Positions 3 to 34,915 of a DNA stretch of 64,000 nucleotides are shown here, one piece after another. Below the pieces are notes generated by a model that was not told where the DNA came from, did no database searches, and saw only the letters and a program-made list of their open reading frames with translations. The stretch's first letter is position 1; the number at the start of each line of letters is the position of its first letter. Source of the stretch: an uncultured Planctomycetaceae bacterium (GTDB lineage: Bacteria > Planctomycetota > Phycisphaerae > Sedimentisphaerales > UBA12454); contig CAZUEO010000004.1 in NCBI GenBank assembly GCA_964619675.1, positions 43,411 through 107,410 of the forward strand, in the 5' to 3' direction. The translations under genes and the position numbers were made by a program.

Positions 3-1829
3 GTTCCAAAACAGGATGCAAACTTGCAGCCGGGGTTATACAAAGGCAGCATAATAATTAAGGAAAATGAAAACATTAGAAAAATTGTACCCATTGAGCT
101 TACTATATATGACTTTTCCTTAGAACGGCCGGGTAATCTCAATCCTGTTTATCATGATCCTTTTACCAAAGCCTATTCGAATGATATGAATACAGTTTTC
201 GATGCTTACGTTGAGACGGGGTTCGACCCATTCTTCTTTTCTGAGAAGTACCGCATTTTAGCTACTAGAGATATAAATGATTCTAATGAAATTATCGACC
301 CCAATAATATCATATTCAACACAGAGCTTTTTGAAGAAGCTCTTGATAGAGTGATAGAAGAGCAATTTGTAAAAGATTTGGTGTTTATATGGATACCATG
401 GGAATTGACAAGTGAAATTCGTAGTTTAGTAGTGCCCTCTACAGTTAGTGGATTGTGGAACCAATGTAGTGATCCGAATTTTGTTATTGCATTTGGGTTA
501 CTTATCGAAAAATATAAAGAGATTGGCAATTCAAGGAATATTAGTTTTGTTTTTAATGTTAATGACGAACCAGGTTATAATGTTTATTTTAGAATTGAAG
601 CAGACCGTTTGTATCATATCATAAAAGACGCCAATAGCCTGACCTACTCTAGTTACATTCCCAATTGCGATAATGCCCTGAATCCGGGAAGTTTCTACGT
701 AGGAACGAGCGATGGTAATATACCCCCGCTGACCAACCTTGTTGACTATAAAGCTTGGTATCTCCCTCGAGCTGATGAAGGATATTGCAAACATAATGAT
801 TTTAACGACCCTAATTATCACGGGGTCTTTGGATACTATACTACGTTCTTTTCCAGTCTCAGGAACCCTATATACAATAGATTCTTACACGGTTATTTTG
901 CTTTTGGTACTGATGCTAAAGTTGTAGCTGGGTACGCTATGGGAGATTATGTAAGTGACCCTTACAATGATTTTGATGGCTGCATTAATGGGGGAATAAG
1001 CTCTGCTTGGTATTACATGCCTGATTTTATTTACGCTTATCCTACATGGGAGGGAAAATTGCTATTTAGTATCGGTGGTCTGGAGGGTATCAGGGAGGGA
1101 ATAAAGGATTCAAAGTATATTTCTACTTTGCAGAAGCTTATTAAAAAATATCCAAACAACCCCGTATCCATTGAAGCAACGAATTATTTGAACTTGCTTA
1201 AAAGAGACAAAATTGACCCCCACTATATAGATGGATATGTGAGCAAAGCTACAGTGCTTGGGTACTATGGAGAAATATTAAAAAAGATATCAGATCAAAA
1301 TAACCCGGATGATTTTGAGGCGTTTACCAGAATCAGAAAAAATATCGCTGGCTACATTGTGCTGCTAAGCTCGTTAGCATCTGAGCCTAACCCTGCAGAT
1401 GGAGCAGAAGATGTAAATACTTCTGCATCGATTAGCTGGAAGCCCGGAAAAGGTGCTCTTTCGTATGATGTTTACCTTGGAGTTGATTACAATGATGTTA
1501 ATGACGCCAATATAACCTCGCCCCGGTATATGGGCAATTATGATGTTAATAGCTTTGACCCAAATGTGCTTGAATATTACACCACTTACTATTGGCGAAT
1601 TGACAGCGAAAGTGCCGTTGGCAAAGCTAAAGGCAATGTTTGGAGCTTTAGTACTAAGGCTTGTACAGTAGATTTTGAAGACTTTACGGCATTTGCTGAT
1701 TACTGGCTTGAAACCGGTAGCGGTCTGGCTTTTGATTTCGACGATGACAATGACATAGATGCTGCAGACCTGCGATGGTTTACTACTTACTGGCTTAGTT
1801 GCTGTCCAGCCGATTGGCCTTTTGAATAG
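3..1829 (+). CDS. Secreted modular protein, 5'-truncated: DUF4091/GH123-like catalytic region, Ig/FN3-like module and C-terminal dockerin-like domain
   Basis: Frame is open to the window edge (VPKQDANLQPG...). LEGIREGIKDSKY resembles the DUF4091 C-terminal motif. Module ASEPNPADG...TYYWRID...VWSFST. Tail VDFEDFTAFADYWL...DFDDDNDIDAADL. Confidence 0.6.
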   Translation, partial: VPKQDANLQPGLYKGSIIIKENENIRKIVPIELTIYDFSLERPGNLNPVYHDPFTKAYSNDMNTVFDAYVETGFDPFFFSEKYRILATRDINDSNEIIDPNNIIFNTELFEEALDRVIEEQFVKDLVFIWIPWELTSEIRSLVVPSTVSGLWNQCSDPNFVIAFGLLIEKYKEIGNSRNISFVFNVNDEPGYNVYFRIEADRLYHIIKDANSLTYSSYIPNCDNALNPGSFYVGTSDGNIPPLTNLVDYKAWYLPRADEGYCKHNDFNDPNYHGVFGYYTTFFSSLRNPIYNRFLHGYFAFGTDAKVVAGYAMGDYVSDPYNDFDGCINGGISSAWYYMPDFIYAYPTWEGKLLFSIGGLEGIREGIKDSKYISTLQKLIKKYPNNPVSIEATNYLNLLKRDKIDPHYIDGYVSKATVLGYYGEILKKISDQNNPDDFEAFTRIRKNIAGYIVLLSSLASEPNPADGAEDVNTSASISWKPGKGALSYDVYLGVDYNDVNDANITSPRYMGNYDVNSFDPNVLEYYTTYYWRIDSESAVGKAKGNVWSFSTKACTVDFEDFTAFADYWLETGSGLAFDFDDDNDIDAADLRWFTTYWLSCCPADWPFE

Positions 1830-1838
1830 GAGTCAAAA

Positions 1839-4800
1839 ATGAACACGTGCAAATCTGTCAGGATGATTATCTTATCGTTTCTGGTTTTAATTTCCTCTGC
1901 GGCTTTGGCGACGACATATTATGTCGACCCCGGCGGCAGCGATGACGCCAACGGCTTATCGTGGGCAACTGCTTTTGCTACCATCCAGAAAGGAATAAAA
2001 GAAGCCAATGATGGCAATATAAGTGATTATGCGGTTGTATATGTTAATTCCGGGACTTATTTGACGGGCCCTATTCATTTTTACGATAATAATGTAAAAG
2101 TTATTTTTAAGGAAAATGTTGAAGTTCTCGCAAGAAGCAATTACGACCTTAATGAGCCGAATCTTTTCGCAGGTACCACGGCTTGTCTTGTTCAAGCGAT
2201 AAATAAAGAGAATATCATTATTGATGGAAATAATACTGTGCTTCGTATGAGGAAGTCGGAATACACCTCAGGGGAATGGCGAATGGTTATTAATTTGTGG
2301 AACTGCACCAACGTTAGTTTGAAGTCGCTGATATTAAAAGACAGCGGTGGTGATGGCATATACATCGGTCAATACGAAGAAGACGAAGCAATAGCTTGTA
2401 AAGATATAAGTATCGAGAACGTAACCTGTGACAACAATTATCGGAATGGTATTAGTGTAGTAAGCGTTGACGGGTTGACTATTGAAAATTGCGTCATAAA
2501 AAATACCAATGGTGCTCCTGCCGGCCCATGGGCAGGCATTGACTTTGAACCAAATTGGGACTATGAGCTGTTGAAAAACATAAATGTAAGAAATATCCGA
2601 ATGGAGGACAACAAGGGGAGTGGCGTAACGGTAACTGCATGGAGACTTGACTCGGATCCTAATGACATAAGTATAACATGCGAAAATTTATATATAAGGG
2701 GAGGGGACAACGCAGGTATTCAGGTTGTAGGTATAGGTGACAGCAATGACCATAATGGACCTGACGGTTTGATTACATTCAGTAATGTTACAGTAGAGGA
2801 TGCGAATCGGGGAGCCTGGATATGGAAATCTTACAGCAAAGCAGGTCTTGTTTTTAATAATTGCGTATGGAAAAATTCCGCAGAATATGCAGTATTAATA
2901 GATGATCGTTGGTACATTCATCAGCCTGGAGGAGTAGATTTTAATGACTGTCAGGTATTCGAAAATGCGGACCGACCTGCTATAATCTATAGTGGAGGTG
3001 AGGCTATATATGATATTCATGGCGATATTTATGTCCAAAATGACCTTCGCAGCACAAATTTGTATGACTGGAACGGAGCCCAACCCAATGATGTTGATGT
3101 AGATGTCAATTCCGGCATAGCAGATTTCTGCAAGGCTTATAACAGAACACAAAACAGATGGCATGCAACTATTCAGGCGGCAATTGACGATGCGAATAAT
3201 AACGATCTAATTGAAATCCAAAAGTGCACTCACTACGAGAGCATCGATTTTGGCGGCAAGGCGATAACGTTACAAAGTACCGACCCTAATGACTGGGATG
3301 TCGTTGCAGCCACAATCATAGACGCCAATGACTCCGGCGATGCGGTTACATTCAGTAACAGCGAAGACGCCAATTCGGTATTGAGGGGCTTTATAATTCA
3401 AGGAAGCTCTTATAATGGCATAGTTTGCAGTAATGGTGCTACACCCATAATTAAAAATTGCATTGTCAGTGGTGGTAAAGGAATAGATTGCGCTGGTAGT
3501 GGAACTGCTCCAGTCATTTCCAACAACATAGTCAAAGATTGTGATATTGGGATATGGTGCCGTATCATTGCTTCACCGGTTATAAAGAATAATTTAATAT
3601 ATGATAATGGCAATGGGATACTTACATCTGCTGCTGGTGTGGTAGAAATTAAAAATAATACCATAGTAAATAGTGCCAACTGTGGCATACAGGTTCTTGG
3701 CATAGAACCAGTTATAAGCAATTGCATTATTTGGGATTGTAATGATGATTTATACAATTGCAGCGCAACTTACAGTTGTATCGAAGATTCTTTTGATTCC
3801 AACGATCCGAATTTTGTGGGCAGCATCAATAGCAATCCATGTTTTGTAGCTGCGGATGCTAATGATTTCCATTTAATCGGCCTTTCTCCCTGCATCGATA
3901 GCGGCGACCCAAATGAAAATTGTGCTGGCCAGGTGGACATTGACGGCCAAGCCAGGCTCGTAGACGGTCGGGTTGACATGGGTGCAGACGAGAGGCAGGG
4001 ATATGAAACATACGGCATGGAAATAGAATCTGTGTCCCAGGATTCCAACGGGATTACTGTCATAACAACCGGGGCAAGGTATGTTCTAAACGGCACCGGA
4101 ATTAAAATGTATCGCAGAATAGACCCCAATACCAATTCTATAAACGAAAGAGAGGTTGCTGAATTGGCTTTTGATGCCGATATCGGCTCACTGTCCATTG
4201 AGTTTTTCGACACCCGTAGAGCTTTGGTAGATAGCGACAAGGCGACATTTGATTTTCAGTCAGATTCGCTGTTTTTTGTGACCGCCAAGGAAGATGTTAA
4301 TGTTACGCATACCAATCTTATTGCAAATGCTCCGTGGAATGCACCGTTAGACCCAGACGAGAGAGACCTGGACAGGATGTGGACGGACGGTTATGGAGGC
4401 TCGCTGCTTGCAAGTATATCGCAGGCAACCGCCGGTTCTGTTATATCTGAGGACGTAGATTTTACTACGGTCAGCCTGTTGCCAGGAGATGAAACTGCTC
4501 ATATGGTTTACCCCGCCAAGCCTTTTGACTTCAATGGCCTTTACGGAACAAATGCAAGACCGTTTATGTACTATTTATTTAATACAACTGAAATGAACGA
4601 TTTTGTGAATAATACAAATAATTTTAGACAAAACTTAGTGGATGATGGGTTTGGTGTAATAATGTTGTGGAACGCGGTGTATACAAATTCTCACACACCT
4701 CAACTTTTGGATTCGGATCCTGATATCCTTGGATATAACGTATCGGACCCAAACTATGTTAAGAACATTATAAATGTAGCTCATGCCAATGAATTCAAGA

Positions 4801-5915
4801 TTATCGCTTACCTTCTTGCCCCGGCCCATTCATACTGGGATTATGAAGAACAACATCAAGATATAGCTGTAACCCTGAATTGGATGAAAAATTTCCAGGA
4901 GGAATATGGTTTTGACGGCTGGTATTTTGACAATGCCAATGTCAGCGATGATGTTATCGATGATTATGATTTCATAAGGCAGGTAAGAACCGATATCGGA
5001 ATTAATGGCATCATTTATCATCATGATTCTGTGGATGTCTGGGCTACAGGAACAATTTATGGGGGATATAGCGGTTTGAGAGCAATTATGGTAGATGCCT
5101 ATGCAAACTATGCATTGACTGGAGAGACCGGAACGATAGCAGAAATCGATTACCCTAATGACCCGTACCTTAGATTTTATACTGCCGGTTACGGTTTATC
5201 TCAAGCCTATGCTTCACATAAGAGAAAAAACAACGGTTCTATGTCTTTGTCAGAGGAAGAAAAAAACAGGATTATGGCAGAAAATTTAAATGGTTGTGAA
5301 TGTGGTGAGCGTAGTCGCGAAAATTCATGGATAAACAGCTTCAAGCCTTTTTATGACATCAGAAAGACTGAATATTTAAACGACCCCAATCATTTTGACC
5401 CTGATGTCGATTGGCCTATTGACCCTAATAACGGCTGGTTCAGAATGCCTACAAGCATAAGTGTAACCGATATAAACAGCAACTCAACTACAATTACCTG
5501 GACGACAAATGAAAATTCAGATAGTGAGGTAACGTATACGAGTACTGGTTATTGGTGGGCAAGTTATTATGGAGATCCAAATGCGCCGGATGGAAGCGTG
5601 TCGGATTCTAATCTTGTTACTGAACATAGCATAACATTAACCGGTTTAGATTCAAATACTCCCTATGAATTTAAGATAAGGTCGTCAAATGGACAATCTG
5701 TCGTGAATGAAATTATTTGGGGGTATGTCGGCAGCTTCACTACGAAGACTTGCACGGTCAATTTTGAAGACTTTGCGGCCTTTGCTAACCTCTGGCTTGA
5801 AACCGGTAATGACCTGCCCTTTGATTTCGACGATGACAATGACGTCGATGCCGCGGACCTGAAATGGTTTATTACTTACTGGCTTAGTTGCTGTCCAGCC
5901 GATTGGCCTTTTTAA
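1839..5915 (+). CDS. Large secreted protein: two right-handed beta-helix regions, choice-of-anchor-Q-like segment, putative glycoside-hydrolase-like barrel, FN3-like domain, dockerin-like tail
   Basis: Signal peptide followed by TTYYVDPGGSDDANG. TIQAAID beta-helix starts. SPCIDSGDP...VDMGADE. FDGWYFDN. ITWTTNENSDSEVTY...HSITLTGL. Tail nearly identical to the upstream gene. Confidence 0.65.
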   Translation: MNTCKSVRMIILSFLVLISSAALATTYYVDPGGSDDANGLSWATAFATIQKGIKEANDGNISDYAVVYVNSGTYLTGPIHFYDNNVKVIFKENVEVLARSNYDLNEPNLFAGTTACLVQAINKENIIIDGNNTVLRMRKSEYTSGEWRMVINLWNCTNVSLKSLILKDSGGDGIYIGQYEEDEAIACKDISIENVTCDNNYRNGISVVSVDGLTIENCVIKNTNGAPAGPWAGIDFEPNWDYELLKNINVRNIRMEDNKGSGVTVTAWRLDSDPNDISITCENLYIRGGDNAGIQVVGIGDSNDHNGPDGLITFSNVTVEDANRGAWIWKSYSKAGLVFNNCVWKNSAEYAVLIDDRWYIHQPGGVDFNDCQVFENADRPAIIYSGGEAIYDIHGDIYVQNDLRSTNLYDWNGAQPNDVDVDVNSGIADFCKAYNRTQNRWHATIQAAIDDANNNDLIEIQKCTHYESIDFGGKAITLQSTDPNDWDVVAATIIDANDSGDAVTFSNSEDANSVLRGFIIQGSSYNGIVCSNGATPIIKNCIVSGGKGIDCAGSGTAPVISNNIVKDCDIGIWCRIIASPVIKNNLIYDNGNGILTSAAGVVEIKNNTIVNSANCGIQVLGIEPVISNCIIWDCNDDLYNCSATYSCIEDSFDSNDPNFVGSINSNPCFVAADANDFHLIGLSPCIDSGDPNENCAGQVDIDGQARLVDGRVDMGADERQGYETYGMEIESVSQDSNGITVITTGARYVLNGTGIKMYRRIDPNTNSINEREVAELAFDADIGSLSIEFFDTRRALVDSDKATFDFQSDSLFFVTAKEDVNVTHTNLIANAPWNAPLDPDERDLDRMWTDGYGGSLLASISQATAGSVISEDVDFTTVSLLPGDETAHMVYPAKPFDFNGLYGTNARPFMYYLFNTTEMNDFVNNTNNFRQNLVDDGFGVIMLWNAVYTNSHTPQLLDSDPDILGYNVSDPNYVKNIINVAHANEFKIIAYLLAPAHSYWDYEEQHQDIAVTLNWMKNFQEEYGFDGWYFDNANVSDDVIDDYDFIRQVRTDIGINGIIYHHDSVDVWATGTIYGGYSGLRAIMVDAYANYALTGETGTIAEIDYPNDPYLRFYTAGYGLSQAYASHKRKNNGSMSLSEEEKNRIMAENLNGCECGERSRENSWINSFKPFYDIRKTEYLNDPNHFDPDVDWPIDPNNGWFRMPTSISVTDINSNSTTITWTTNENSDSEVTYTSTGYWWASYYGDPNAPDGSVSDSNLVTEHSITLTGLDSNTPYEFKIRSSNGQSVVNEIIWGYVGSFTTKTCTVNFEDFAAFANLWLETGNDLPFDFDDDNDVDAADLKWFITYWLSCCPADWPF

Positions 5916-9438: not shown

Positions 9439-11796
9439 GTGATTGTGTTTAATGCATATCGCGAAGTATTAGTTATTGCCGGCCTTGTCTTTTGTTTATT
9501 CTCATCAGCATTTGCCTACTCCGGCGGATCAGGAACGCAGCAAGCCCCATACCAAATCGCCGATGCTAATGACCTGTTGCAATTGGCGGCAACCACATCA
9601 GATTACAACAAATGCTTTATCCTGACAGCGGATATTGATATGGAGGGGCAGGTCTTTACGACGGCAATCATTGCCGGCGATACTATTGCGGGTAATTATA
9701 GTTTCGAGGGGGCGGCCTTTACGGGGACGTTTGACGGCAACAACCATAAAATCACGAATTCTACCATCAACGGCGGAAGCAATGACTACCTCGGTTTATT
9801 TGGTTATCTTTTTGACAGTGGTTCGGTGAAAAACCTTGGCCTTGAGAACTGTTCTGTCAGCGGTGATTCTAATTCTTATTTTGTCGGCGGCCTGGTGGGA
9901 CGTAACGACGGCAGTATCAGCAATTGCTATTCGACAGGTTCTGTCAGCGGTCGCTCGGTTGTCGGCGGGCTGGTGGGATACAATGAGGATGGCAGTATAG
10001 CTAATTGTTATAGTATGGCCGAAGTCAGCAGCAATGGTGGAGCCGGCGGATTAGTGTCGTCCAATAACGGTCATATAGCAAACTGCTACAGCACGGGAGC
10101 AGTAAGTGGAAATATTTATGGTGTTGGTGGACTCGTAGGGGAAAATTCCTGGCTTGGCGACATAACAAAATGTTACAGCACCGGCGCGGTTAGCGGCGGT
10201 GGCGACATCGGTGGATTGGTTGGACGGAACGAAGAAGATGGCCTTGTAACAATCAGTTTTTGGGATGTTGAGACTTCCAGCTTAACAATAAGTGATGGAG
10301 GCAACGGCCTAAGTACCGAAGAGATGAAGCACATGACAATTTATTCTCTTAAAGACTGGGCTGGGAACGACTGGACTATCGATGATGGAAATGAATATCC
10401 TCGTCTTGCCTGGGAAAACGCCGTGGGCCAACCAATAGCTGAACCAAATGTTCCATTAAATGGCAGCGGCACTGCCGAGTGCCCTTATGAAATTAGAAAC
10501 GCCCAAGATCTGCAATTGTTGAGTTTTGCATGCGCGTTGTGGGATAAGCATTTTGTTTTAATAAATGATATAGATGTAAATAATTATAATATTGAGCCAA
10601 TAGGTTACGACATCAGACGAGAAGAGCTGTATGGTGGTTATGTAATATATTATGGATTAGAATATCAATTCCAGGGAGTCTTAAATGGCAATGGGCATGT
10701 TATATCAAATCTTATTATTGACGCTAATGATATGGAATATGTAGGGCTTTTTAGATATATAGGTTCGAACGCAATCATAAAAAATCTTGGAATTGAAGAT
10801 GCTAACATAATCGGGGGTTCTTATGTTGGCTCTCTGGTGGGACTAAATAATGGCAGCGTAAACAACAGCTATAGCACAGGTATAGTTAATAGTAATGGTT
10901 CTTATGTCGGTGGGTTGGTTGGCGAGAATTATGGCGGTAATATATCAGCCAGCTACAATACCACAGAGGTTAGTGGAGAACAATCTTGCTGCGGCGGTTT
11001 GGCCGGATATAACGACGGTGATATATTGAACTGCTACAATACGGGAATAGTTAATGGTTCTGATTGTGTGGGCGGACTGATTGGATGGAATGACGATGGA
11101 TGGAATGACGACCATAGAGTGGAAAACTGCTACAATGCAGGAACAGTCGGTGGAGATAATTATAGTGTCGGTGGTTTGGCAGGGAGTAATGGCGGCTATA
11201 TAATCAACTGTTACAATATCGGATCGGTTGTTGGCGGCAGTTCTGTCGGTGGTTTGGTGGGAGAAAATTATATATGGCAAGATAGTTTTGGTTTATTAAC
11301 AATTTCTCCCGGCAGCATAACTAACTGTTATAGTACCGGAGATGTTGACGGTGACAGTCCTGTAGGTGGTTTGGTAGGAGATGATTCGTACGGATCGTAC
11401 GGCATTGCCGAACAGTCTTTCTGGGATGTCAATACTTCCGGCCAGACGGAAAGTGCCGGCGGAGAAGGAAAGACCACAGAGGAAATGCAAACACTTTCAA
11501 CATTTACCTCCGCAGGCTGGGATTTTTCTTATACTGACGGTGACCCTGCGGACTGGTTTATACAAATAGAAGAGTATCCGATTCTTGTCTGGCAGATATC
11601 GCCTGCGGATATCTATACCGACGGAAGAAACAACTTCAGGGATTTCGCGGTGTTTGCGCAATACTGGATGAGAGATGATTGCGCGATATATAACTATTAC
11701 TGCGACTGGGCGGATCTGAACTTTGACGGCTCTGTAGATATCGATGACCTTATCGTGCTTATGAGCTATTGGCTCCAGTCAGGGATATATGAGTAG
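9439..11796 (+). CDS. Secreted GLUG-motif repeat protein with dockerin-like C-terminus
   Basis: Signal peptide. Many VGGLVG.N.G.I.NCYSTG repeats in two blocks, each preceded by G.GT...PY.I..A.DL. Tail DLNFDGSVDIDDLIVLMSYW. Confidence 0.85.
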   Translation: MIVFNAYREVLVIAGLVFCLFSSAFAYSGGSGTQQAPYQIADANDLLQLAATTSDYNKCFILTADIDMEGQVFTTAIIAGDTIAGNYSFEGAAFTGTFDGNNHKITNSTINGGSNDYLGLFGYLFDSGSVKNLGLENCSVSGDSNSYFVGGLVGRNDGSISNCYSTGSVSGRSVVGGLVGYNEDGSIANCYSMAEVSSNGGAGGLVSSNNGHIANCYSTGAVSGNIYGVGGLVGENSWLGDITKCYSTGAVSGGGDIGGLVGRNEEDGLVTISFWDVETSSLTISDGGNGLSTEEMKHMTIYSLKDWAGNDWTIDDGNEYPRLAWENAVGQPIAEPNVPLNGSGTAECPYEIRNAQDLQLLSFACALWDKHFVLINDIDVNNYNIEPIGYDIRREELYGGYVIYYGLEYQFQGVLNGNGHVISNLIIDANDMEYVGLFRYIGSNAIIKNLGIEDANIIGGSYVGSLVGLNNGSVNNSYSTGIVNSNGSYVGGLVGENYGGNISASYNTTEVSGEQSCCGGLAGYNDGDILNCYNTGIVNGSDCVGGLIGWNDDGWNDDHRVENCYNAGTVGGDNYSVGGLAGSNGGYIINCYNIGSVVGGSSVGGLVGENYIWQDSFGLLTISPGSITNCYSTGDVDGDSPVGGLVGDDSYGSYGIAEQSFWDVNTSGQTESAGGEGKTTEEMQTLSTFTSAGWDFSYTDGDPADWFIQIEEYPILVWQISPADIYTDGRNNFRDFAVFAQYWMRDDCAIYNYYCDWADLNFDGSVDIDDLIVLMSYWLQSGIYE

Positions 11797-11905
11797 GGCG
11801 GAGTTATCAAAATAGCTTATAATGAACCGGATTCTTTCTGGGATGCCGCAATGGTGATTTGGATTTACAAGATGATGTTATCCTTACCGTTTTTTGGGAA
11901 GGAAG

Positions 11906-11925
11906 ACCCGCCGTGAAACGGCGGG
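11906..11925. terminator. Hairpin between convergent genes (possible bidirectional terminator or REP-like element)
   Basis: cccgccgt-gaa-acggcggg perfect stem. Confidence 0.5.
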
Positions 11926-12015
11926 CTAAATGTTTACAGATTACCCCTCATTTACATTCGGGGCTCCGTGGATTCGAAATTCAACACCGCCCCGATGAAG
12001 TAGTTTTAAGGAAAC

Positions 12016-12735: not shown

Positions 12736-12748
12736 AGCTGGCTCCCGT

Positions 12749-17337: not shown

Positions 17338-20300
17338 CTACTTTATAATTACTTCAATTGTTTGTCCTGCCTTTATGTCAACTTCCGTTTGGCCTGATAA
17401 AAATGGTTTCTGCATCTTAGAAATTGCGCGGTCATCGTGCTGAAAAAGCTCATATTCGAGGCGGTATCTTCCTGTGGGCAGATTAAGATTTGGTTTGGAA
17501 AAAGGAGTTTTTTTAAGATATTCCTGCGGCACCTGAAGAAAAATAAAATGTTTTTTAATCTGGGTGTTGAAGGTTGTAATAGTGTAAGGTTCTTGTGTGT
17601 CAAGGTTAATAGCTTTACAAATCAGGTGAGCCCAGGATTTTGTTATTAATTTTTTAGCGGCGTCATCAAATATAAATTTCAAGACAGCGCTTTTTTCAAG
17701 AGCTATTTCTATTGAAACAGATTTGTCAGCTTCTATTTGAATATTATCTTTACTGAAGGTTAGAAAGCCGTCCTTAGCTGCCATGAAAGTATATTTTGCA
17801 GGGGGCAATTTATCGTATTCAATTATGCCGTTGGCATCGGTTCTGTTTGTGTTTGGCGTCGCATTTACGTCCCGCTGCCGCGGTAGGCCGAAGAAATGCA
17901 TCTCAAGGTCATTGGTCAGGCCACAGGCAGCGCCATCAAGCGGCTTTTTTGACTCTGCATCGATGACAGTTACCTGCAATTTTGCTGTTGGGTTTATGAA
18001 TTTAATGTTGTTTGGCTGTTGTGAATTATCAATTTCAAAGGATTCAGATATTACCCGGAGTCCTTTGCCGATTAGTGTGAGATAGTATCTGCCGGGCTTG
18101 AGGTTTGAAAAGGTAAAGCTGCCATTTGGGTTGAGCATAGGTTGTAGATTTATATAATCCCAGTTTATCTTGTAAGTATAATTTTCATCATCGGCTATAG
18201 ATTTAGGGTTCCATCTTCTTGCCATAAGCCTGAGATTTTTTTCGCCTATAAATTCAGGAGGAATTTTTCCGCTTATCGCTATCGAGCCAAAGTCGATATT
18301 TAAAGTCGTATCGGAATTGACGTCAATCTGCTGATTGTCCCGAAGCTCATCTTCAGGATTGTATGTGCGAGAAGAAAAAGTTGAAGAGACTTGCGGTTTC
18401 CTATAGTGTGTACTAACGTTATATTTACCTTTAGCCAGGCCAGTTATTTTGAAGAAACCATTGCTGTTGCTTGTATCAGATTTTGAATAATCCGAACCGC
18501 GGAAGAATACGTTCGCGTTGCTTAACGGCGTTTGTCCAATACAGACCTGTCCTGTAACTGTAAAGCCTTGTTCGTTGCCGAAGTCGAGGTTGATTTTTTG
18601 GCCTGGCGATAAAATAACTTTTTTTGAGGCTGTTGTATGGCTGGAACGGTTTATAATCGGCGACATTGTATAAATACTAAGATTTCCTGCCGGCAGGTCT
18701 GACAGACAATAATTGCCATCTGCATTTGTGACAGTGCTTTTTTCAATAAAGCCCATTTGGTGAGAATGCAAATCATATCGGCTGTTCAGGTCGCAACTTA
18801 TCTTTATACCTGCAGCCGGTTTACCATCCTTATATATTGTTCCAAAAACCTCGGCGCTTTTTTCAAGGACAATTTCATAGAGTTCTTCCTTATCATCCGG
18901 CAGAATCAGGTCTGCATCGATATAAGGAGCAAAACCAGAGGCGGTAATATAGATACCCCGTTTGCCGCTGCCTATTGTGTCGAAAGCAAATCTGCCGTTT
19001 GAATCGGTCATTGTCGTGTCTTTGTCGTCCCAGTGTTCGCCATACATTTGGAGTCTGTTTGTTTCCGAAAACCATCTTACTGAAGCACCGACAACAGGTT
19101 CGTTCTGTTCATTTACTACCGAGCCTTCGATTGCAGCGGGAGGCATCAGTTTAAAGATGATTCGATTAGGTTCATTTGAGGTTGGCAAAACTTCTACGGG
19201 ATCGATGGTCAGCAGGTCGTAACCCTGTGCATAAACGGTTACGATATAACCTGCGCCAATCGGGAGAGTTTCTGAGCCGGTATCAAAAAAACCATTAGAA
19301 TCATTGAAATCATGCCCTTCTCTGCTCCATGTGGCGGAATATCCGCTGCCACGTTTTTGACTTTTACTGCTAGAGCCCAGTTTTACATTGAACTTTGAAA
19401 CTGCTTTTCCAGTGGCATTGTCGATTACCTGCCCGTAAATTCTGCCTGCCTGCTGGACTTCGATTATATGTTCGTCTTTTCCGATTTCAATTTCAGGCAT
19501 TATATTCGGCACAGTTTGTGACCTGATCTGAAGGACGACCTTGCCGGAAGACGGCGCGTTTTCAATGGTGAATTTACCCTCGGCGTCAGTAATAATCCGG
19601 TCTTTATAATCACTAATATTGCTGACACCTTTAATTTCTCTTATAATTACGTTAACACCAGAAACAGGATTACCCTGACTGTTAACGACTTTGCCGTGAA
19701 GAGGTTTAGGGTTTTCAAACCTGATATTTATCTGTTTTTCAGATTCCCGGGCATCGATATTAAACGTTTCTACATAAGGCGGATACTGTGGATGAACGGC
19801 CCAGAGGACAAGCTGGCCATTATCGATATCGATGTTTTGTAATTCGTAAAAACCATTAGCGTCAGATGTTGCTTCTATATGATTCCACATAGAACGGGAT
19901 TCTGTATTTCCGACGACAGCGCCTTGTAACGGATTTCCATAAGGGTCTGTAACCCGGCCAAAAACTATAATGCCTACTTTTAATACTATGTCCAGTTTGG
20001 CGGTTTGGCCTGTAGCAGACGGCGGAAAATTAATTGTTACTGCAGAGAAGCTATCTGCTTTTACTGCCAGTGAATACTGTCCGAAATCGGGGTCAAGGCC
20101 GTCGATTTCGTAAAAGCCATTCGCATCTGTTTTCGTATCCTGATTTCTGAGCTGAAAAACTTCTACTTTTGCATTCGCGACGGGACTATCGTTTTCATCT
20201 TTTATGAAACCGGCCACTTTGCTTGAAGGCATAAGCTCGATTTTTGTATCGATGATTTTACCCGCCACCGGCATAATGCTTATTTTTTGAGAAGCAAAGT

Positions 20301-20565
20301 TTTTCGCGATGATATAAATAGATTGTTTATGTTGAATGTCAAGGCCGGTAATCATAAAAAAGCCATTTGCATCGGTTGTGGTTCTTTTGGTGCCTCTGCG
20401 GGTTCTATAAATTATTTCCACATCCTGCAGCGGTTTTCCGGAAAGCTTTTCAATTACATAACCGCTAATGCCTGTCTGACTGCTGTTCTTAAGATAGTCT
20501 TCTGCAAATGCAGATGAGAGAGACAGCAAGCACAAACAAATCAGACAAATCCTCAGTTCTTTCAT
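17338..20565 (-). CDS. Large secreted protein with tandem carboxypeptidase-regulatory-like (transthyretin/Ig-like) domains
   Basis: Signal peptide. About 8 repeats of I.G.V.D..G.PV.GA.V......TD.NG.F/Y.I..L. No catalytic motif recognised. Confidence 0.8.
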   Translation of the reverse strand: MKELRICLICLCLLSLSSAFAEDYLKNSSQTGISGYVIEKLSGKPLQDVEIIYRTRRGTKRTTTDANGFFMITGLDIQHKQSIYIIAKNFASQKISIMPVAGKIIDTKIELMPSSKVAGFIKDENDSPVANAKVEVFQLRNQDTKTDANGFYEIDGLDPDFGQYSLAVKADSFSAVTINFPPSATGQTAKLDIVLKVGIIVFGRVTDPYGNPLQGAVVGNTESRSMWNHIEATSDANGFYELQNIDIDNGQLVLWAVHPQYPPYVETFNIDARESEKQINIRFENPKPLHGKVVNSQGNPVSGVNVIIREIKGVSNISDYKDRIITDAEGKFTIENAPSSGKVVLQIRSQTVPNIMPEIEIGKDEHIIEVQQAGRIYGQVIDNATGKAVSKFNVKLGSSSKSQKRGSGYSATWSREGHDFNDSNGFFDTGSETLPIGAGYIVTVYAQGYDLLTIDPVEVLPTSNEPNRIIFKLMPPAAIEGSVVNEQNEPVVGASVRWFSETNRLQMYGEHWDDKDTTMTDSNGRFAFDTIGSGKRGIYITASGFAPYIDADLILPDDKEELYEIVLEKSAEVFGTIYKDGKPAAGIKISCDLNSRYDLHSHQMGFIEKSTVTNADGNYCLSDLPAGNLSIYTMSPIINRSSHTTASKKVILSPGQKINLDFGNEQGFTVTGQVCIGQTPLSNANVFFRGSDYSKSDTSNSNGFFKITGLAKGKYNVSTHYRKPQVSSTFSSRTYNPEDELRDNQQIDVNSDTTLNIDFGSIAISGKIPPEFIGEKNLRLMARRWNPKSIADDENYTYKINWDYINLQPMLNPNGSFTFSNLKPGRYYLTLIGKGLRVISESFEIDNSQQPNNIKFINPTAKLQVTVIDAESKKPLDGAACGLTNDLEMHFFGLPRQRDVNATPNTNRTDANGIIEYDKLPPAKYTFMAAKDGFLTFSKDNIQIEADKSVSIEIALEKSAVLKFIFDDAAKKLITKSWAHLICKAINLDTQEPYTITTFNTQIKKHFIFLQVPQEYLKKTPFSKPNLNLPTGRYRLEYELFQHDDRAISKMQKPFLSGQTEVDIKAGQTIEVIIK

Positions 20566-24502: not shown

Positions 24503-25216
24503 TTATCGTTTTCTTAAAAGAATCCCGCCGATGGCCAACAGTGCAATCGTTGCTGGCTCAGGAATAAGATAGACAGCCATAGCAAAATCGCGGCCATTAG
24601 TGTTTAGAAAAAGCTGATTTCGGATGCCCGGCGTACCGCTTTCCGTATCCACGAATGCAGCGCCGTCTGCATAAGTACTGGTCCCAAGATTAGCGGTACG
24701 ATACCAGTAGATTCCGCCAACGTAAGTTGGAGCGGTAAGCTCAAAAGCATAATAGTTTCCTGCTGTGAGCATAACCTCTTCGGAGCCCTCGAAATCAAAC
24801 TCTCTGGCGCCCCTGGTAGCCGTTCCACTATATGTGAAGGTTACAGCCCCACCCCACAGGTCAGTACCCGCAGCATAATCCTGTGAACCGCCGCCCTGAT
24901 ATGTCGGGTCTGTAGTTCCGAGGTCCACAAGACGCAAAGTGTAAGGATTTTGTGTTGGCGCACTGCCATCTTCCCATATAGCAATCTTGTCCAGCTGCAG
25001 ACTTGTATGGTCCGGCAAGACCTTGAAGGTCTGAGAGATACACACCCTTGGCGAAACAAGCCCCTCACCTATAGTAGCATCCTTATTAGGGTCTGCTATT
25101 GTAACGACCGTCGGTGCTCCAGACCAGCCGGTAGTAGAGACTGTTTGCGACTGCATTGCACTACAAAGGGAGATAATACTGAAAATCAGAATTGCTGCTA
25201 CTAACTTCTTCTTCAT
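24503..25216 (-). CDS. PEP-CTERM sorting-domain protein (start moved to the Met at 25216)
   Basis: RBS GGAGG before MKKKLVAAILIFSIISLCSA signal peptide. C-terminus IPEPATIALLAIGGILLRKR. Confidence 0.88.
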   Translation of the reverse strand: MKKKLVAAILIFSIISLCSAMQSQTVSTTGWSGAPTVVTIADPNKDATIGEGLVSPRVCISQTFKVLPDHTSLQLDKIAIWEDGSAPTQNPYTLRLVDLGTTDPTYQGGGSQDYAAGTDLWGGAVTFTYSGTATRGAREFDFEGSEEVMLTAGNYYAFELTAPTYVGGIYWYRTANLGTSTYADGAAFVDTESGTPGIRNQLFLNTNGRDFAMAVYLIPEPATIALLAIGGILLRKR

Positions 25217-25270
25217 TGCTCGTCCTCCTTCGATTATTAAGTAAAAGGAGTACCCCTTTTCTCGAATCAG

Positions 25271-25300
25271 ATTGTACACCCAAAACCTTCTGATTGTCAA
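25271..25300 (-). promoter_or_regulatory. Putative sigma70 promoter for the PEP-CTERM gene
   Basis: Minus strand TTGACA-N18-TACAAT. Confidence 0.5.
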
Positions 25301-25829
25301 GAGTTTTTTAGGACTTTGTCGGATTTTTGGTGGGATTTTCTTTTTTGACGAAAAGCTCAATTTAAGATGCGTTGATTGACAGGGCATATCGCTTACAGGT
25401 ATTGCAGATAGAAGCACTTACGTTTTTCGATTTTTTAGAATATAAAAACCCGATATCCGGTGGTTTTATCTCCGGTTTAACATTGAGGGGTTTCTTCACT
25501 AACCGTATCCGAACAAAACTTATCGGGAATAGATTTTGTGCCGTTTTGCGATGTTATTATTTATTTCTTACATTTTTTAACCAGCCAGTGTGATTGTCGG
25601 GCGTGTTAGTCCTGTCGTATTATACAAAGTCCATGGTTTTATGAGACGTTGCAGACGTCATTTAAATGCAAAAGGCGGTCAGCCAAAGTAATAAAGGTTA
25701 AGTTCCGCTGCTGCATAACCGATAGCGCTGGCAGAAATCCGCTTCCGCCAACCACCGGGGGGTAAAGCGGTAGAACAGCATTTTAAAAATAAAGATTAAA
25801 GATTTTCCTTAGAATTTAAGGAGAAGAAA

Positions 25830-27032: not shown

Positions 27033-27458
27033 ATGGTAAAAGCGACTATAAAAAATGAGGCTTTTACGCTTGCTGAGGCACTGATAGCCCTTGTAATTCT
27101 TATGATAGCTGCAGCAGGACTGATTCTGCCATTTGCATCAAGCACTGTGGTCGGCCAGCAGGGCTGCAGTCAAACAATCGCAGCAAAGCTTGCATCCGAC
27201 CGGATTGAACGGATTATCGCAGACCCTAATTATTGGTCCGCAGGCAGCTATAACGAGCCGAAAGGGCAGGTAAAGGATGCAAATGGTATCATTTTTATTG
27301 ACCCGATGTATGCGGATTTCAGCAGAGAAACAGTTTGTGAACAGGTTTATATGCCGCAGCAGGGTGCTTTTGGAACGCCAAATTTTATCAGGATAACGGT
27401 CAGGGTATATCAAAATGACCTTAAACTTGCCGAAATTACAAGGCTGAAAAGCAAATGA
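27033..27458 (+). CDS. Minor pilin, PilV/GspI-like
   Basis: KNEA|FTLAEALIALVILMI; position in the cluster. Confidence 0.8.
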   Translation: MVKATIKNEAFTLAEALIALVILMIAAAGLILPFASSTVVGQQGCSQTIAAKLASDRIERIIADPNYWSAGSYNEPKGQVKDANGIIFIDPMYADFSRETVCEQVYMPQQGAFGTPNFIRITVRVYQNDLKLAEITRLKSK

Positions 27459-28096
27459 AACAGAGGAAGAATAGGTATAAGGGTTTTACACTTGCCGAAC
27501 TGCTGATGACAGTGTGGGTAATGAGTATAATTCTCACTGCCGTAGCGATGTTATCTTTTGCTCTCGGCAGTGCAAATGATTCTGCGGATGATACGTCCCA
27601 GATTCAAAGCAGAATCCGCTATACGACTATTTATCTGGGCGGGCTTGTAAAAAACAGCAAGCTGATATGCGCAAAGTTCAGCGATAGCGTGGCAATATGG
27701 CAGGCAGATTACAACGGCGACAGCCAGATAGACCCCAATGAAATAGTTTATATTGATAGCGGCGGCGGCAATAACTATATAAAGCTGATTAGTTTTAGTC
27801 TCCCCGTTGCGGCTGCCTCGTTTCCGAAGACTCTCGATTCAATCGGAAACGGTCAGGCAAGAACGTGGCTCGCGGCCAATTGCCAGAACAGTTCTATTAC
27901 CCTTATAGACAATTGCAGTTATGTAGATTTTACGACAGACCTGCAACCGCCTTTTACAAAAAGGTTAAATATCTTTTTTGGCGTTAATAACAAAGGCAGC
28001 GTCGAAAATTATCAGATAAGTGCGTATCTGCGATGTCAGGCAGGTTATCTGCTCGACGGCAGCGGTCAGATTGTTTCAAGTGACGACGATATGTAA
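27455..28096 (+). CDS. Minor pilin, PilW/GspJ-like
   Basis: RYKG|FTLAELLMTVWVMSIIL. Confidence 0.82.
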   Translation: MKQRKNRYKGFTLAELLMTVWVMSIILTAVAMLSFALGSANDSADDTSQIQSRIRYTTIYLGGLVKNSKLICAKFSDSVAIWQADYNGDSQIDPNEIVYIDSGGGNNYIKLISFSLPVAAASFPKTLDSIGNGQARTWLAANCQNSSITLIDNCSYVDFTTDLQPPFTKRLNIFFGVNNKGSVENYQISAYLRCQAGYLLDGSGQIVSSDDDM

Positions 28097-33187: not shown

Positions 33188-34915
33188 ATGAGACGTCAAG
33201 AAATGAGAATAAAAGTCGGCAGCAGAAATATTTTACTGTTGAGCGTAATTGTGATAACGGCGACTGCCTTTGCGGCAACAGGTTGGGCGGAACCGAACCA
33301 GACGGCTGACGATGAATTCTCTCTTGTCAACCAGTCCGACAGCGGCCTTATAATTAATTACCAGCAGCGCTCCATAGCCGAAGATTCCTTTCTCGACCAG
33401 CCTATGCAGAGCATAACCTTCAGAAAGGATATGACGGTAAGAGACGCTCTTCGTTTTCTTGCCGCCAAGTACCGCAGAAATATAATTCCGTCCGCACAGG
33501 TTACCGGCAAGCTGAATGTAACAAATCTGTACGAAGTTACATTCGAGGAAGCTCTCAACGCCATACTCGGGAGCGATTATCGTTATAAATCAAGCGGAGG
33601 TTTTATCAGAGTTTATACAGCCGAGGAATATACGAAACTTGCCAAGAATATTGAGAATATGACCAGCAGAGTTTTTGAGCTCTATTATGTCAACGCAGCC
33701 GAGGTAAAGGCTCTCGTAACGCCTGTTATGAGTGAGTTTGGCAAGGTGGCTTCAACCAGCGCATCAGCGGTGGATACGGAAGCAGGCCAGGGTGGCGATA
33801 CGCTTAGTATGAGAGATATGATAGTTGTTTACGATTTTCCCGAAAGGCTTGAGCAGATTGAGGAAATGATTAAGAAAATAGACGTTAAGCCTAAACAGAT
33901 TCTGATTGAAGTTACGATTCTTAAGGCAATGCTTACCGAAGATACAGAGTTTGGCATACAATGGGACAAAATAGCCGGCATAGGCAGCATTACAAGGACT
34001 ACAACTCCTGTAGATATGGCCATAAACCTTGCGAGTTCTGTAACAACGGGTATTAGTATGACACTTTCAAACAATGCAATTGTTGCTTCAATTAAAGCCC
34101 TTGAAGGGATAACCGATACGACTGTACTTGCCAATCCTAAGATTATGGCACTGAATAAACAAGCCGGTTATATAAATATTGGTGAAGAACGAGGATATAC
34201 GGCGAGCACAACTCAGGGTCAGACCACTACAACTTCAGTGGACTTTCTCGTAAGCGGAACAATTCTGAGATTTAGGCCATTTATATGTGATAATGGATAT
34301 GTTCGTATGGAGATTAACCCTGAACTGAGCACCGGCTCTGTTCAGATAGATGCGAATAGTACTTTACCTTTGAAAACTATTGCTCAAGTAAAGAGTAATA
34401 TAATGGTAAAGGATGGCAAAACAATTATTATCGGCGGATTATTCAAGGAGGACCTCACGAACAGTCATTCGCAAGTGCCGGTCGTAGGTGATGCGCCTAT
34501 TTTCGGCTGGCTGTTTAGAAAAACTAAAGATACCAATATTCGCACAGAGCTTGTTATATTGATTACGCCGCATATCATCGATGAACCGGAAGAACTTGCA
34601 TCTGCATCTGAAAGAAAACGCAAAGATATTAGCCGAATTGTTGAAGGTTCAAGAAAAAGAATAAGCCCGATATCCAGAGTGCGTATTTACGAGGGGATAT
34701 ACGCAAAAGCCGTAAATTATTATGCTGATAAGAAATACGACAAGGCTCTGGCGGAGTTGAACTGGATTATAGGTTTCAGGCCGGATGCGCTTGAAGCAGT
34801 TCAGCTTAAGGAAAAGATTCTCGCTGAGGTTAGACCTGATAAGTATAGCGCACTTGAACGCATTATGCTCGAACAGATTAGAAAAGAGCAGGATGTAATG
34901 TGGAAACGAAGGTAA
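33188..34915 (+). CDS. Secretin (PilQ/GspD family) with a helical C-terminal extension
   Basis: QILIEVTIL, VLANPKIMALNKQAGYINIG, MVKDGKTIIIGGLF, VPVVGDAPIFGWLFR, TELVILITPHII. Confidence 0.93.
   Translation: MRRQEMRIKVGSRNILLLSVIVITATAFAATGWAEPNQTADDEFSLVNQSDSGLIINYQQRSIAEDSFLDQPMQSITFRKDMTVRDALRFLAAKYRRNIIPSAQVTGKLNVTNLYEVTFEEALNAILGSDYRYKSSGGFIRVYTAEEYTKLAKNIENMTSRVFELYYVNAAEVKALVTPVMSEFGKVASTSASAVDTEAGQGGDTLSMRDMIVVYDFPERLEQIEEMIKKIDVKPKQILIEVTILKAMLTEDTEFGIQWDKIAGIGSITRTTTPVDMAINLASSVTTGISMTLSNNAIVASIKALEGITDTTVLANPKIMALNKQAGYINIGEERGYTASTTQGQTTTTSVDFLVSGTILRFRPFICDNGYVRMEINPELSTGSVQIDANSTLPLKTIAQVKSNIMVKDGKTIIIGGLFKEDLTNSHSQVPVVGDAPIFGWLFRKTKDTNIRTELVILITPHIIDEPEELASASERKRKDISRIVEGSRKRISPISRVRIYEGIYAKAVNYYADKKYDKALAELNWIIGFRPDALEAVQLKEKILAEVRPDKYSALERIMLEQIRKEQDVMWKRR

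What the first reader, a model, noticed from the sequence alone, without database searches (positions are those of the whole stretch)
3..5915. Exported proteins are enriched in a (D/E)-(P/A/S)-N tripeptide: candidate non-canonical modification sequon
Seen (manual count): the 1358-aa protein has 9 DPN, 2 EPN, 6 DAN and 5 DSN, and 11 of its 13 P-N dipeptides follow D/E. The upstream protein has 4 DPN and 1 EPN (5 of 7). The motif recurs in other exported proteins: GLUG (EPN, 3 DAN), the secretin just after its signal peptide (AEPNQ), PEP-CTERM (DPN), two minor pilins (DPN) and the 56003 protein (EPN, DPN, DAN, DSN). In cytoplasmic GyrA, Pnp, LysC, PilB and MurE only about 2 of 9 P-N follow D/E. 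Codons vary (gac ccc aat, gat ccg aat, gac cct aat, gat cca aat), so it is not a DNA repeat. Established: the Campylobacter PglB sequon is D/E-X-N-X-S/T with X not Pro; most motifs here lack the +2 S/T and many have Pro, so they are not that sequon. Inference: a lineage-specific recognition signal, such as an atypical Asn glycosylation site or a surface metal/turn motif, under protein-level selection in the secretome.
Basis: partly seen in the sequence, partly recalled or inferred. Interest (0 to 1): 0.75.

Follow-up and report, generated by a model that had tools for sequence, protein, structure and literature searches.

The report
Asp-Pro-Asn turn motif in giant secreted proteins
The excess of Asp-Pro-Asn in these proteins is real and very strong, but it is confined to a few families of giant extracellular repeat proteins in one planctomycete clade and looks like a favoured tight-turn or capping motif, not a modification site.

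Summary
Protein B has 9 DPN against 0.4 expected. In 119 homologues DPN is the most over-represented of all 8000 tripeptides (O/E 14).

The pooled (D/E)-(P/A/S)-N motif is heterogeneous, and it is not a property of exported proteins in general. In 0.79 Mb of related metagenome contigs the excess sits in beta-helix cassette proteins, GH123-like domains and YD/RHS-repeat proteins. Sixty-eight ordinary exported proteins (29 observed, 26.5 expected) and 102 cytoplasmic proteins (25 observed, 28.7 expected) are at baseline.

The excess is clade-specific. In the GH123-like domain O/E falls from about 15 in close relatives to 0.9 in distant ones.

AlphaFold models place the sites at helix N-caps and loops. 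At conserved columns D-P is kept while N is replaced by Y, D, S, C or A. NPD, DPD and DAN alternate with DPN at the same columns.

There is no S/T preference at +2, no EF-hand-like continuation, and no oligosaccharyltransferase signature in the DNA I could reach.

Best reading: a clade-favoured Asx-Pro-Asn turn/cap motif. A modification or processing signal is unsupported but not excluded (about 8%).

The parts
3..1829 (+). C-terminal 608 aa of a 1849-aa extracellular protein (P0016: Beta_helix + CBM_4_9 + GH123-like). The window starts inside the gene. It has 4 DPN (nt 297-305, 471-479, 807-815, 1557-1565) and 1 EPN (nt 1383-1391).
   Evidence: (identical to residues 1242-1849 of P0016). AF2 model: D157 is the N-cap of helix 158-177, D99 is the N-cap of a 3-residue helix, DPN269 is in a loop, and DAN209 is a helix C-cap.
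1839..5915 (+). 1358-aa exported protein with a signal peptide, two beta-helix regions, a choice-of-anchor-Q-like tail, an unknown middle region and a C-terminal FN3. DPN lies at nt 2655, 3282, 3804, 3906, 4122, 4746, 5382, 5421 and 5574 (each +8). EPN lies at nt 2154 and 2547.
   Evidence: DPN 9 against 0.41 expected.
3144..4043 (+). About 300-aa beta-helix cassette of protein B (aa 436-735). It carries two family-conserved DPN columns, ST-DPN-DxxVV (aa 482) and SPCIDxG-DPN-G (aa 690). It also carries DAN columns at aa 451, 495, 510 and 673.
   Evidence: Alignments: DPN in 59 of 103 and 48 of 103 cassettes, with DPY, DPD, DPC, DPS and DPA as alternatives. AF2 model pLDDT 85: DPN482 sits between strand 42-45 and helix 51-56 of the model. 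Generic right-handed beta-helix fold.
56003..58135 (+). 710-aa exported beta-helix/PMP-repeat protein with a choice-of-anchor-Q-like tail. It has 10 [DE][PAS]N; 3 of them are ESN in the repeat MCNESNSSPxxTNCTF.
17338..20565 (-). 1075-aa exported protein made of CarboxypepD_reg repeats. Six of its 7 motif hits are the domain's own T-D-(A/S)-N-G-(F/R/I) hairpin motif.
9439..11796 (+). 785-aa exported GLUG-repeat protein with 1 EPN, 3 DAN and 1 DSN. The excess is weak (5 against 1.4, p 0.014).
24503..25417 (-). PEP-CTERM protein with C-terminal IPEPATIALLAIGGILLRKR. The real start is probably the internal MKKKLVAAIL signal peptide. It has one DPN.
27033..28096 (+). Two minor pilin-like genes (27033-27458 and 27455-28096), each with one DPN directly after a hydrophobic stretch (IIA-DPN, SQI-DPN).
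33188..34915 (+). Secretin with AEPNQ directly after its signal peptide, and one DAN.

Best explanation
D-P-N, and more loosely D-A-N and D-S-N, is a short local-structure element. It is an Asx-Pro-type tight turn or capping motif that ends a beta-strand or starts a helix.

It is used at very high density in a few architectures of giant, acidic, Asn/Asp-rich extracellular proteins in one Planctomycetota (Sedimentisphaerales-like) clade. These architectures are mobile beta-helix cassettes with a choice-of-anchor-Q-like tail, GH123-like domains fused to them, and YD/RHS repeats (Y-DPNG hairpins).

Proposed mechanism (inferred):
- The Asp side chain caps the backbone NH groups that follow.
- Pro fixes the next residue's backbone.
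- Asn fills the polar third turn position.

In this clade, pre-existing polar or Pro-containing loops (DPK, DPA, NPG, SPN, SPD and others) have repeatedly converged on [DE]PN, and the density of D-P has risen about threefold.

Shown: the enrichment, its restriction to certain families and one clade, the positions at secondary-structure boundaries in the models, and the substitution patterns.

Inferred: the hydrogen-bond geometry, and the reason for the clade's preference. Candidate reasons are the Asn-richness of these proteins, possibly combined with selection for rigid, protease-resistant, strand-terminating turns in proteins that fold outside the cell.
For: 1. Restriction to families. On 79 related metagenome contigs, beta-helix/GH123 family proteins have DPN 483 against 35 expected. 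Five YD-repeat proteins have 51 against 1.8. Sixty-eight ordinary exported proteins have [DE]PN 10 against 5.9 and [DE][PAS]N 29 against 26.5. The 102 cytoplasmic proteins have 8 against 6.5 and 25 against 28.7.

2. Structural position. In the AF2 models every site in a confident region lies at a helix N-cap or in a loop: module aa 482; protein A aa 99, 157 and 269. DAN lies at helix C-caps.

3. D-P is the conserved part. D-P density stays near 10 per 1000 aa. The share of D-P-x that is DPN rises from 21% to 66% as protein Asn content rises from about 5% to about 10%. At the two conserved cassette columns N is replaced by Y, D, C, S or A.

4. In the GH123-like domain, 167 sites in 29 near relatives occupy 55 alignment columns. 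NPD, DPD, DAN and NPN occur as alternatives at those columns. Distant homologues carry DPK, DPA, DPR, NPG, SPN or SPD at several of the same columns.

5. YD-repeat proteins use DPNG at the repeat turn, and they match solved Rhs structures at E = 5e-35.

6. In the solved homologue AlgG (4OZY), N-P-N aligns with the cassette's DPN column. The alignment is weak at its edge.
Against: - Other Asx/Ser-Pro turn tripeptides (NPD, NPN, SPN, DPS, DPG) are not enriched. A generic turn preference therefore does not explain why it is D-P-N in particular.
- The clade-specific, scattered and convergent gain of sites is also the pattern a short recognition motif under selection would leave.
- Fourteen ordinary exported proteins of the window itself still show DPN 4 against 0.35 expected. 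This count is post hoc.
- No atomic coordinates were available, so turn geometry was not measured.
Confidence: 0.6

Rival explanations
1. [DE]-P-N is a recognition element for a lineage-specific enzyme acting on giant secreted proteins. This could be an unusual Asn, Pro or Asp modification (glycosylation, hydroxylation) or a processing site after Asn or at the Asp-Pro bond.
For: - The tripeptide is extremely specific: rank 1 of 8000, and near relatives such as NPD, SPN and DPS are not enriched.
- The gain is clade-specific within one enzyme domain: O/E 15.7 falling to 0.94.
- Sites are scattered and turn over across 55 columns, none occupied in more than 12 of 29 proteins.
- There is precedent, from general knowledge, for a three-residue motif used by a phylum-wide glycosylation system in Bacteroidetes.
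Against: - There is no +2 S/T preference, and Pro at -1 is excluded by the known PglB sequon (established knowledge).
- N is the replaceable residue and D-P the conserved one.
- NPD alternates with DPN at the same columns.
- Several sites are helix N-caps in confidently modelled, structured regions.
- Ordinary exported proteins are not enriched.
- No STT3 signature occurs in 0.87 Mb, and no modifying enzyme recurs next to these genes.
- The literature searches found no report of such a system in Planctomycetes.
Confidence: 0.08
2. D-x-N sites are ligands of Ca2+ or other metal sites that stabilise very acidic extracellular proteins (D about 10%, K about 2%).
For: - D-x-N as a whole is enriched: 34 against 13 expected in B.
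- The proteins are strongly acidic.
- Some homologues carry dockerin or TSP3-like stretches such as GLDPNDPDTDxDG.
Against: - An EF-hand or dockerin-type continuation (D-x-N-x-[DNS]-G) follows only 7 of 828 [DE]PN sites and 10 of 727 D[AS]N sites.
- Sites at helix N-caps and C-caps are not typical metal loops.
- The contexts are very diverse: 257 flank clusters.
Confidence: 0.1
3. The excess is an artefact of composition (Asp, Asn and Pro clustered in loops) or of paralogy (a few conserved motifs copied many times).
For: - Two conserved cassette columns account for 38% of sites in the homologues.
- The families have expanded massively and share modules.
- A dipeptide-based expectation reduces the DPN excess to 2.8-fold.
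Against: - The excess survives shuffles restricted to polar residues and to local windows.
- The 257 independent flank clusters alone exceed the 71.5 total occurrences expected.
- Six of the 9 DPN in B lie outside the conserved cassette.
- Equally Asn- and Asp-containing distant homologues show O/E about 1.
- E. coli Ag43, YeeJ and a 50-kb control region are at baseline.
Confidence: 0.05

Closest known systems
Asx-Pro turn, and helix N-cap (Asp) with Pro at N1 (local motifs described by Richardson & Richardson 1988 and Wilson & Finlay 1997; cited from memory)
   Same: Asp followed by Pro at the start of a turn or helix, with a polar Asx at the third position. In the models the sites lie at helix N-caps and loops. 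They interchange with NPD, DPD and NPN.
   Different: Here one particular tripeptide reaches 5-15 copies per protein and is the top-ranked tripeptide of a whole family. It does so in only one clade and only a few architectures. Sibling turn sequences are not enriched.
Campylobacter PglB N-glycosylation sequon D/E-X-N-X-S/T (X not Pro)
   Same: An acidic residue two positions before an Asn, in exported proteins.
   Different: Pro at -1 in the dominant form. No S/T preference at +2. No oligosaccharyltransferase was seen. The Asn is not the conserved residue.
Bacteroidetes general O-glycosylation motif D-(S/T)-(A/I/L/V/M/T) (from memory)
   Same: A three-residue motif beginning with Asp, found in exported proteins across a phylum.
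   Different: The acceptor there is Ser or Thr. That motif was established by experiment, not by statistical excess. No evidence of modification exists here.
YD/RHS repeat hairpin (Y-x-Y-D ... D-x-x-G)
   Same: The related YD-repeat proteins use DPNG at the repeat turn (17 DPNG), and they match solved Rhs shells.
   Different: In these proteins 51 of 79 D-P-x tripeptides are DPN. No YD proteins from other taxa were counted for comparison.
choice-of-anchor Q domain (NCBIfam NF041518) and the CASH/right-handed beta-helix (PF13229)
   Same: The SPCIDxG-DPN-G...DIDG...R...D(M/I)GA(Y/D)E tail and the beta-helix rungs of protein B.
   Different: The NF041518 score is below its cut-off (23.2 against 25). 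The DPN columns are a feature of this clade's version of the cassette, and other cassettes carry DPS, DPD, DPA or DLD there.
CarboxypepD_reg domain T-D-x-x-G-x-F hairpin and Chlamydia PMP repeats
   Same: They account for the DAN/DSN hits in the protein at 17338-20565 and the ESN hits in the protein at 56003.
   Different: These are ordinary domain motifs and are unrelated to the DPN phenomenon.

Membership tests
PglB-type bacterial N-glycosylation sequon | Acidic residue at -2 of the Asn | tested here: met
   True by definition of the motif.
PglB-type bacterial N-glycosylation sequon | Residue at -1 is not Pro | tested here: not met
   The dominant and most enriched form is D-P-N: 9 of 23 sites in B. 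It ranks first of 8000 tripeptides in the homologues.
PglB-type bacterial N-glycosylation sequon | Ser or Thr at +2 | tested here: not met
   237 of 1628 sites (14.6%) against a background S+T frequency of 15.2%.
PglB-type bacterial N-glycosylation sequon | An STT3/PglB oligosaccharyltransferase in the genome | tested here: inconclusive
   None among the window genes scanned. No WWDxG membrane ORF in 0.87 Mb of window plus related contigs.
Asx-Pro turn / helix N-cap motif | Asx followed by Pro at the start of a turn or helix, outside regular strands | tested here: met
   AF2 models. Module DPN482 lies between a strand and a helix. In protein A, D157 and D99 immediately precede helices that start at the Pro, and DPN269 and the other module sites are in coil.
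Asx-Pro turn / helix N-cap motif | Interchangeable with other Asx-Pro-polar variants at homologous positions | tested here: met
   DPY, DPD, NPD, NPS and DPS occur at the cassette columns. NPD, DPD, NPN and DAN occur in near relatives, and DPK, DPA, NPG, SPN and SPD in far GH123-like homologues.
Asx-Pro turn / helix N-cap motif | Asp side-chain hydrogen bond to the backbone NH of i+2/i+3, with turn phi/psi angles | not testable with these tools
   Model coordinates are not returned.
EF-hand / dockerin-type Ca2+ loop | D-x-[DN]-x-[DNS]-G spacing of ligands | tested here: not met
   7 of 828 [DE]PN sites and 10 of 727 D[AS]N sites.
choice-of-anchor Q domain (NF041518) | Score at or above the curated cut-off | tested here: inconclusive
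   B aa 676-719 scores 23.2 bits against a cut-off of 25. The protein at 56003 scores 16.9 bits.
Right-handed parallel beta-helix (PF13229) | Pfam hit above the gathering score, and the fold | tested here: met
   59.8 bits against 25.9. The AF2 model matches pectate lyase, PL6 lyases and AlgG.
YD/RHS repeat proteins (related loci only) | Sequence match to solved Rhs shells, and YxYD repeats | tested here: met
   L045:11736-14600 matches 8H8A at E = 5e-35. It has at least 4 Y.YD repeats.

The most novel reading that the evidence does not exclude
[DE]-P-N is the recognition element of an undescribed, clade-restricted enzyme that modifies or cleaves giant secreted proteins of Sedimentisphaerales-like planctomycetes. 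On this reading the clade's proteins have repeatedly acquired the motif under selection, as glycoproteins acquire sequons.
Probability: 0.08. Interest if true: 0.75.

Novelty: new member of a known kind. Interest (0 to 1): 0.27.

Why it matters
As it stands, this is a clean example of a clade 'standardising' its surface turns on one tripeptide. DPN is the most over-represented of all 8000 tripeptides in a large family of giant extracellular proteins, yet it is at baseline in distant homologues of the same enzyme domain.

This has three practical consequences:
- It is useful for annotating and modelling these very abundant but unstudied planctomycete surface proteins.
- It warns against reading a short-motif excess as a sequon.
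- It gives protein engineers a candidate strand-terminating and capping element.

Only if mass spectrometry showed a modification at these sites would it become a new post-translational system.

Tried and rejected
- **Walking along the source contig.** P0016 and protein B are not on record in the look-up of encoding contigs. Only an 11-kb Logan contig overlapping the window's end was obtained.
- **Genome scans.** With protein B alone it gave only 2 Sedimentisphaerales loci.
- **DNA unavailable.** P0008's contig had no DNA on file.
- **Solved structures.** There is no sequence relative of protein B in the PDB. The fold search returned only generic beta-helix enzymes, so no solved structure shows the motif directly.
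- **Literature.** Searches for 'Asx-Pro turn', 'Asp-Pro-Asn', and Planctomycetes with glycosylation, sequon or PglB found nothing relevant.
- **DPN-rich low-complexity linkers.** Rejected as the source: only 8 short runs in 282 proteins.
- **DNA repeat or codon artefact.** Rejected: 14 different 9-mers at 25 sites.
- **Loop-composition artefact.** Rejected by shuffles restricted to polar residues and to local windows.
- **EF-hand-like loops.** Rejected.
- **Conserved modifying enzyme next to these genes.** Not found. The recurrent neighbours are TPR proteins, a large secretin and YD proteins.
- **RNA genes.** Rfam and tRNA scans of the window found nothing.
Full report
**1. The observation**

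I translated all long ORFs and recounted.
- The 1358-aa protein at 1839-5915 (B) has 13 P-N dipeptides, 11 preceded by D/E. It has 9 DPN, 2 EPN, 6 DAN and 5 DSN, plus one EAN.
- The upstream reading frame at 3-1829 (A) has 7 P-N, 5 after D/E.
- GyrA, Pnp, LysC, PilB and MurE together have 9 P-N, 2 after D/E.

Against 3000 composition-preserving shuffles, B has DPN 9 against 0.41 and [DE][PAS]N 23 against 3.4. A has [DE]PN 5 against 0.39. No shuffle reached the observed counts. The result survives shuffling only the polar residues, and shuffling them only within 30-residue windows. So it is not caused by Asp, Pro and Asn sharing loops.

Pro codons at the sites are as mixed as elsewhere: 14 different 9-mers at 25 sites. 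The signal is therefore at the protein level.

Within the window, the 17 other exported or anchored proteins have [DE][PAS]N 33 against 8.6. The 21 cytoplasmic proteins have 5 against 8.1.

**2. What the proteins are**

B carries a signal peptide, right-handed beta-helix repeats (PF13229), a choice-of-anchor-Q-like tail (NF041518, just below cut-off) and a C-terminal FN3.

A has no Pfam hit of its own. It is identical to residues 1242-1849 of P0016, a 1849-aa protein on the same 119-kb contig with Beta_helix, CBM_4_9 and GH123-like domains. The window therefore starts inside that gene.

Named homologues are almost all Planctomycetota, Phycisphaerae or Sedimentisphaerales MAGs.

The roughly 300-aa beta-helix cassette of B (aa 436-735) recurs at many positions in proteins that also carry S8 peptidase, LamG, PKD, metallophosphatase or GH123-like domains.

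The pooled motif is heterogeneous. The DAN/DSN hits in the protein at 17338-20565 are the T-D-A-N-G-F hairpin of its CarboxypepD_reg repeats. Three hits in the protein at 56003 are ESN in a PMP-type repeat.

**3. Family level**

In 119 homologues of B, DPN occurs 689 times against 49 expected. It is the most over-represented of all 8000 tripeptides (z = 91), and DAN ranks sixth.

NPN, NPD, SPN, TPN, DPS and DPG are at or below expectation. 76% of all P-N dipeptides follow D/E.

Two cassette columns hold 38% of the sites: ITLRST-DPN-DxxVVAATIID and SPCIDxG-DPN-GxYxGxxDIDG. The remaining sites fall into 257 unrelated flank clusters, 188 of them singletons. That is already more than the 71.5 occurrences expected in total. 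Paralogy alone does not explain the excess.

**4. Which proteins, and which lineages**

I collected 79 metagenome contigs (0.79 Mb) that encode the cassette. I called ORFs, classed them with a crude signal-peptide/TM rule, and removed everything with BLAST similarity to the B or A families.

- Family proteins: DPN 483 against 35.
- Non-family exported proteins at first looked equally enriched (57 against 4.8). But 51 of those 57 sites lie in five YD/RHS-repeat proteins (Y-DPNG-x hairpins, matching solved Rhs shells at E = 5e-35). Eight further EPN lie in one protein with EPN(K/E)VEP tandem repeats.
- The remaining 68 ordinary exported proteins: [DE]PN 10 against 5.9 (p = 0.075) and [DE][PAS]N 29 against 26.5.
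- The 102 cytoplasmic proteins: 8 against 6.5 and 25 against 28.7.

D-P density is 2.4 per 1000 aa in both ordinary classes, which equals expectation. It is 10.7 and 15.0 per 1000 aa in the family and YD proteins, and 42% and 65% of those D-P are DPN.

So the contrast is not exported against cytoplasmic. It is a few giant extracellular repeat architectures against everything else.

Fourteen ordinary exported proteins of the window itself have DPN 4 against 0.35. That sample was chosen after the motif had been seen.

Controls:
- E. coli Ag43 (a beta-helix) and YeeJ (2339 aa) have 0 and 1 DPN. A 50-kb E. coli region has DPN 1 against 1.05 and [DE][PAS]N 11 against 10.8.
- Within the GH123-like domain of 151 cluster representatives, [DE]PN O/E falls with identity to A, as the table shows. 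D-P density falls from 12.5 to 4.1 per 1000 aa over the same range.

| Identity to A | [DE]PN O/E |
|---|---|
| 45% or more | 15.7 |
| 40-45% | 12.2 |
| 35-40% | 3.0 |
| 30-35% | 1.3 |
| below 30% | 0.94 |

The excess is therefore clade-specific.

**5. Structure and substitution pattern**

An AF2 model of the cassette (pLDDT 85) and one of A (pLDDT 71, high in the catalytic part) were examined. They place:
- DPN482 between a strand and a short helix.
- A's D157 and D99 immediately before helices that begin at the Pro, which is the N-cap/N1 arrangement.
- DPN269 and the tail sites in coil.
- DAN451 and DAN209 at helix C-termini.

At the two conserved cassette columns the alternatives are DPY, DPD, DPC, DPS, DPA, NPD and NPS. 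D-P is kept and N is the replaceable residue.

D-P density is constant while the DPN share of D-P-x climbs from 21% to 66% with protein Asn content.

In the 29 GH123-like domains closest to A, 167 sites occupy 55 alignment columns, none filled in more than 12 of 29. NPD, DPD, DAN, NPN and DPC occur as alternatives. Distant homologues have DPK, DPA, DPR, DPQ, NPG, NPN, SPN, SPD, EIN or PAN at those columns.

Pre-existing polar or Pro loops have thus converged repeatedly on [DE]PN. A solved distant relative, AlgG (4OZY), aligns N-P-N to the cassette's DPN column, though at a weakly aligned edge.

**6. Tests of the sequon and metal readings**

- S/T at +2 occurs at 14.6% of sites against a 15.2% background.
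- Pro at -1 is excluded by the known PglB sequon (established knowledge).
- No oligosaccharyltransferase is among the window genes I scanned.
- No WWDxG membrane ORF exists in 0.87 Mb of window plus related contigs.
- The recurrent neighbours of the beta-helix genes are TPR proteins, a 1250-aa secretin and YD proteins, not modifying enzymes.
- The literature searches found no report of such a system.
- An EF-hand or dockerin-type continuation follows only 7 of 828 [DE]PN and 10 of 727 D[AS]N sites.

**7. Conclusion**

The most likely explanation (about 0.6) is a local structural element: an Asx-Pro-Asn tight turn or cap. This clade uses it at very high density in giant, acidic, Asn-rich extracellular proteins.

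What remains unexplained is why D-P-N rather than its sibling turn sequences, and why in this clade. Asn-richness plus selection for rigid, strand-terminating, protease-resistant turns is an inference, not a result.

The scattered, convergent, clade-specific gains are also what a short recognition motif would leave. I therefore keep a modification or processing signal at about 0.08 and a non-canonical metal role at about 0.1. Composition or paralogy artefacts are largely excluded (0.05).

The finding is real and statistically striking, but it is a new instance of a known kind of feature. It is not evidence of a new modification system.

Noticed in passing
window 3-1829: The 'upstream protein' is only the C-terminal 608 aa of a 1849-aa protein (P0016: Beta_helix + CBM_4_9 + GH123-like). 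The window begins inside the gene. So both proteins in the finding belong to the same beta-helix superfamily.
   Followed up: yes
window 3144-4043, and homologues P0002-P0120: The roughly 300-aa beta-helix cassette with a choice-of-anchor-Q-like tail behaves as a mobile module. It occurs at very different positions in proteins that also carry S8 peptidase, LamG, PKD, metallophosphatase, GH123-like or CBM domains.
   Followed up: partly
L045:11736-14600, L048:11326-14295, L049:2500-4503, L062:13246-17211, L057:8499-12470: YD/RHS-repeat proteins on contigs that also encode the cassette use DPNG at the repeat hairpin (DPN 51 against 1.8 expected). They caused an apparent 'secretome-wide' signal until they were separated out.
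   Followed up: yes
L047:15872-17074: An exported DUF547 protein has eight tandem 10-residue repeats of the form EPN(K/E)VEPxxx, which looks like a low-complexity linker.
   Followed up: partly
L073:3971-7720, L033:667-2385, and 8-9 further loci each: A 1250-aa secretin and a TPR protein each recur in 10 of the 79 cassette-bearing contigs. This hints at a dedicated secretin-based export route for these giant proteins. The window has its own pilus/T2SS-like cluster with a secretin at 25.8-42.7 kb.
   Followed up: partly
window 25830-26288 and 26517-26975: Two tandem 152-aa pilin genes have almost identical N-terminal sequences (one difference in the first 50 residues), which suggests a recent duplication.
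   Followed up: no
window, 25 [DE]PN sites in 10 exported genes: Asp before Pro at these sites is encoded by GAC in 14 of 18 cases, against 41% GAC overall in the same genes. This may be a codon-context effect (GAC-CCN).
   Followed up: no
window 24503-25417 (-): This is a PEP-CTERM protein (C-terminal IPEPATIALLAIGGILLRKR). The mechanical ORF over-extends by about 67 codons at its 5' end. The likely start is MKKKLVAAILIFSIISLCSA.
   Followed up: partly
window 11797-13715: A gap of about 1.9 kb between the GLUG protein and gyrA holds only two short, unconvincing ORFs (12154-12735 on the minus strand, 12848-13159 on the plus strand). There is no tRNA and no Rfam match.
   Followed up: partly
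L022:6215-8302: A 696-aa membrane protein with an N-terminal multi-span region and a long C-terminal TPR array sits on a cassette contig, with a similar protein in one other locus. Its N-terminal motif (FDDQQYLIDN) reminded me of TMTC/PMT-like glycosyltransferases, but Pfam gave only TPR hits.
   Followed up: partly
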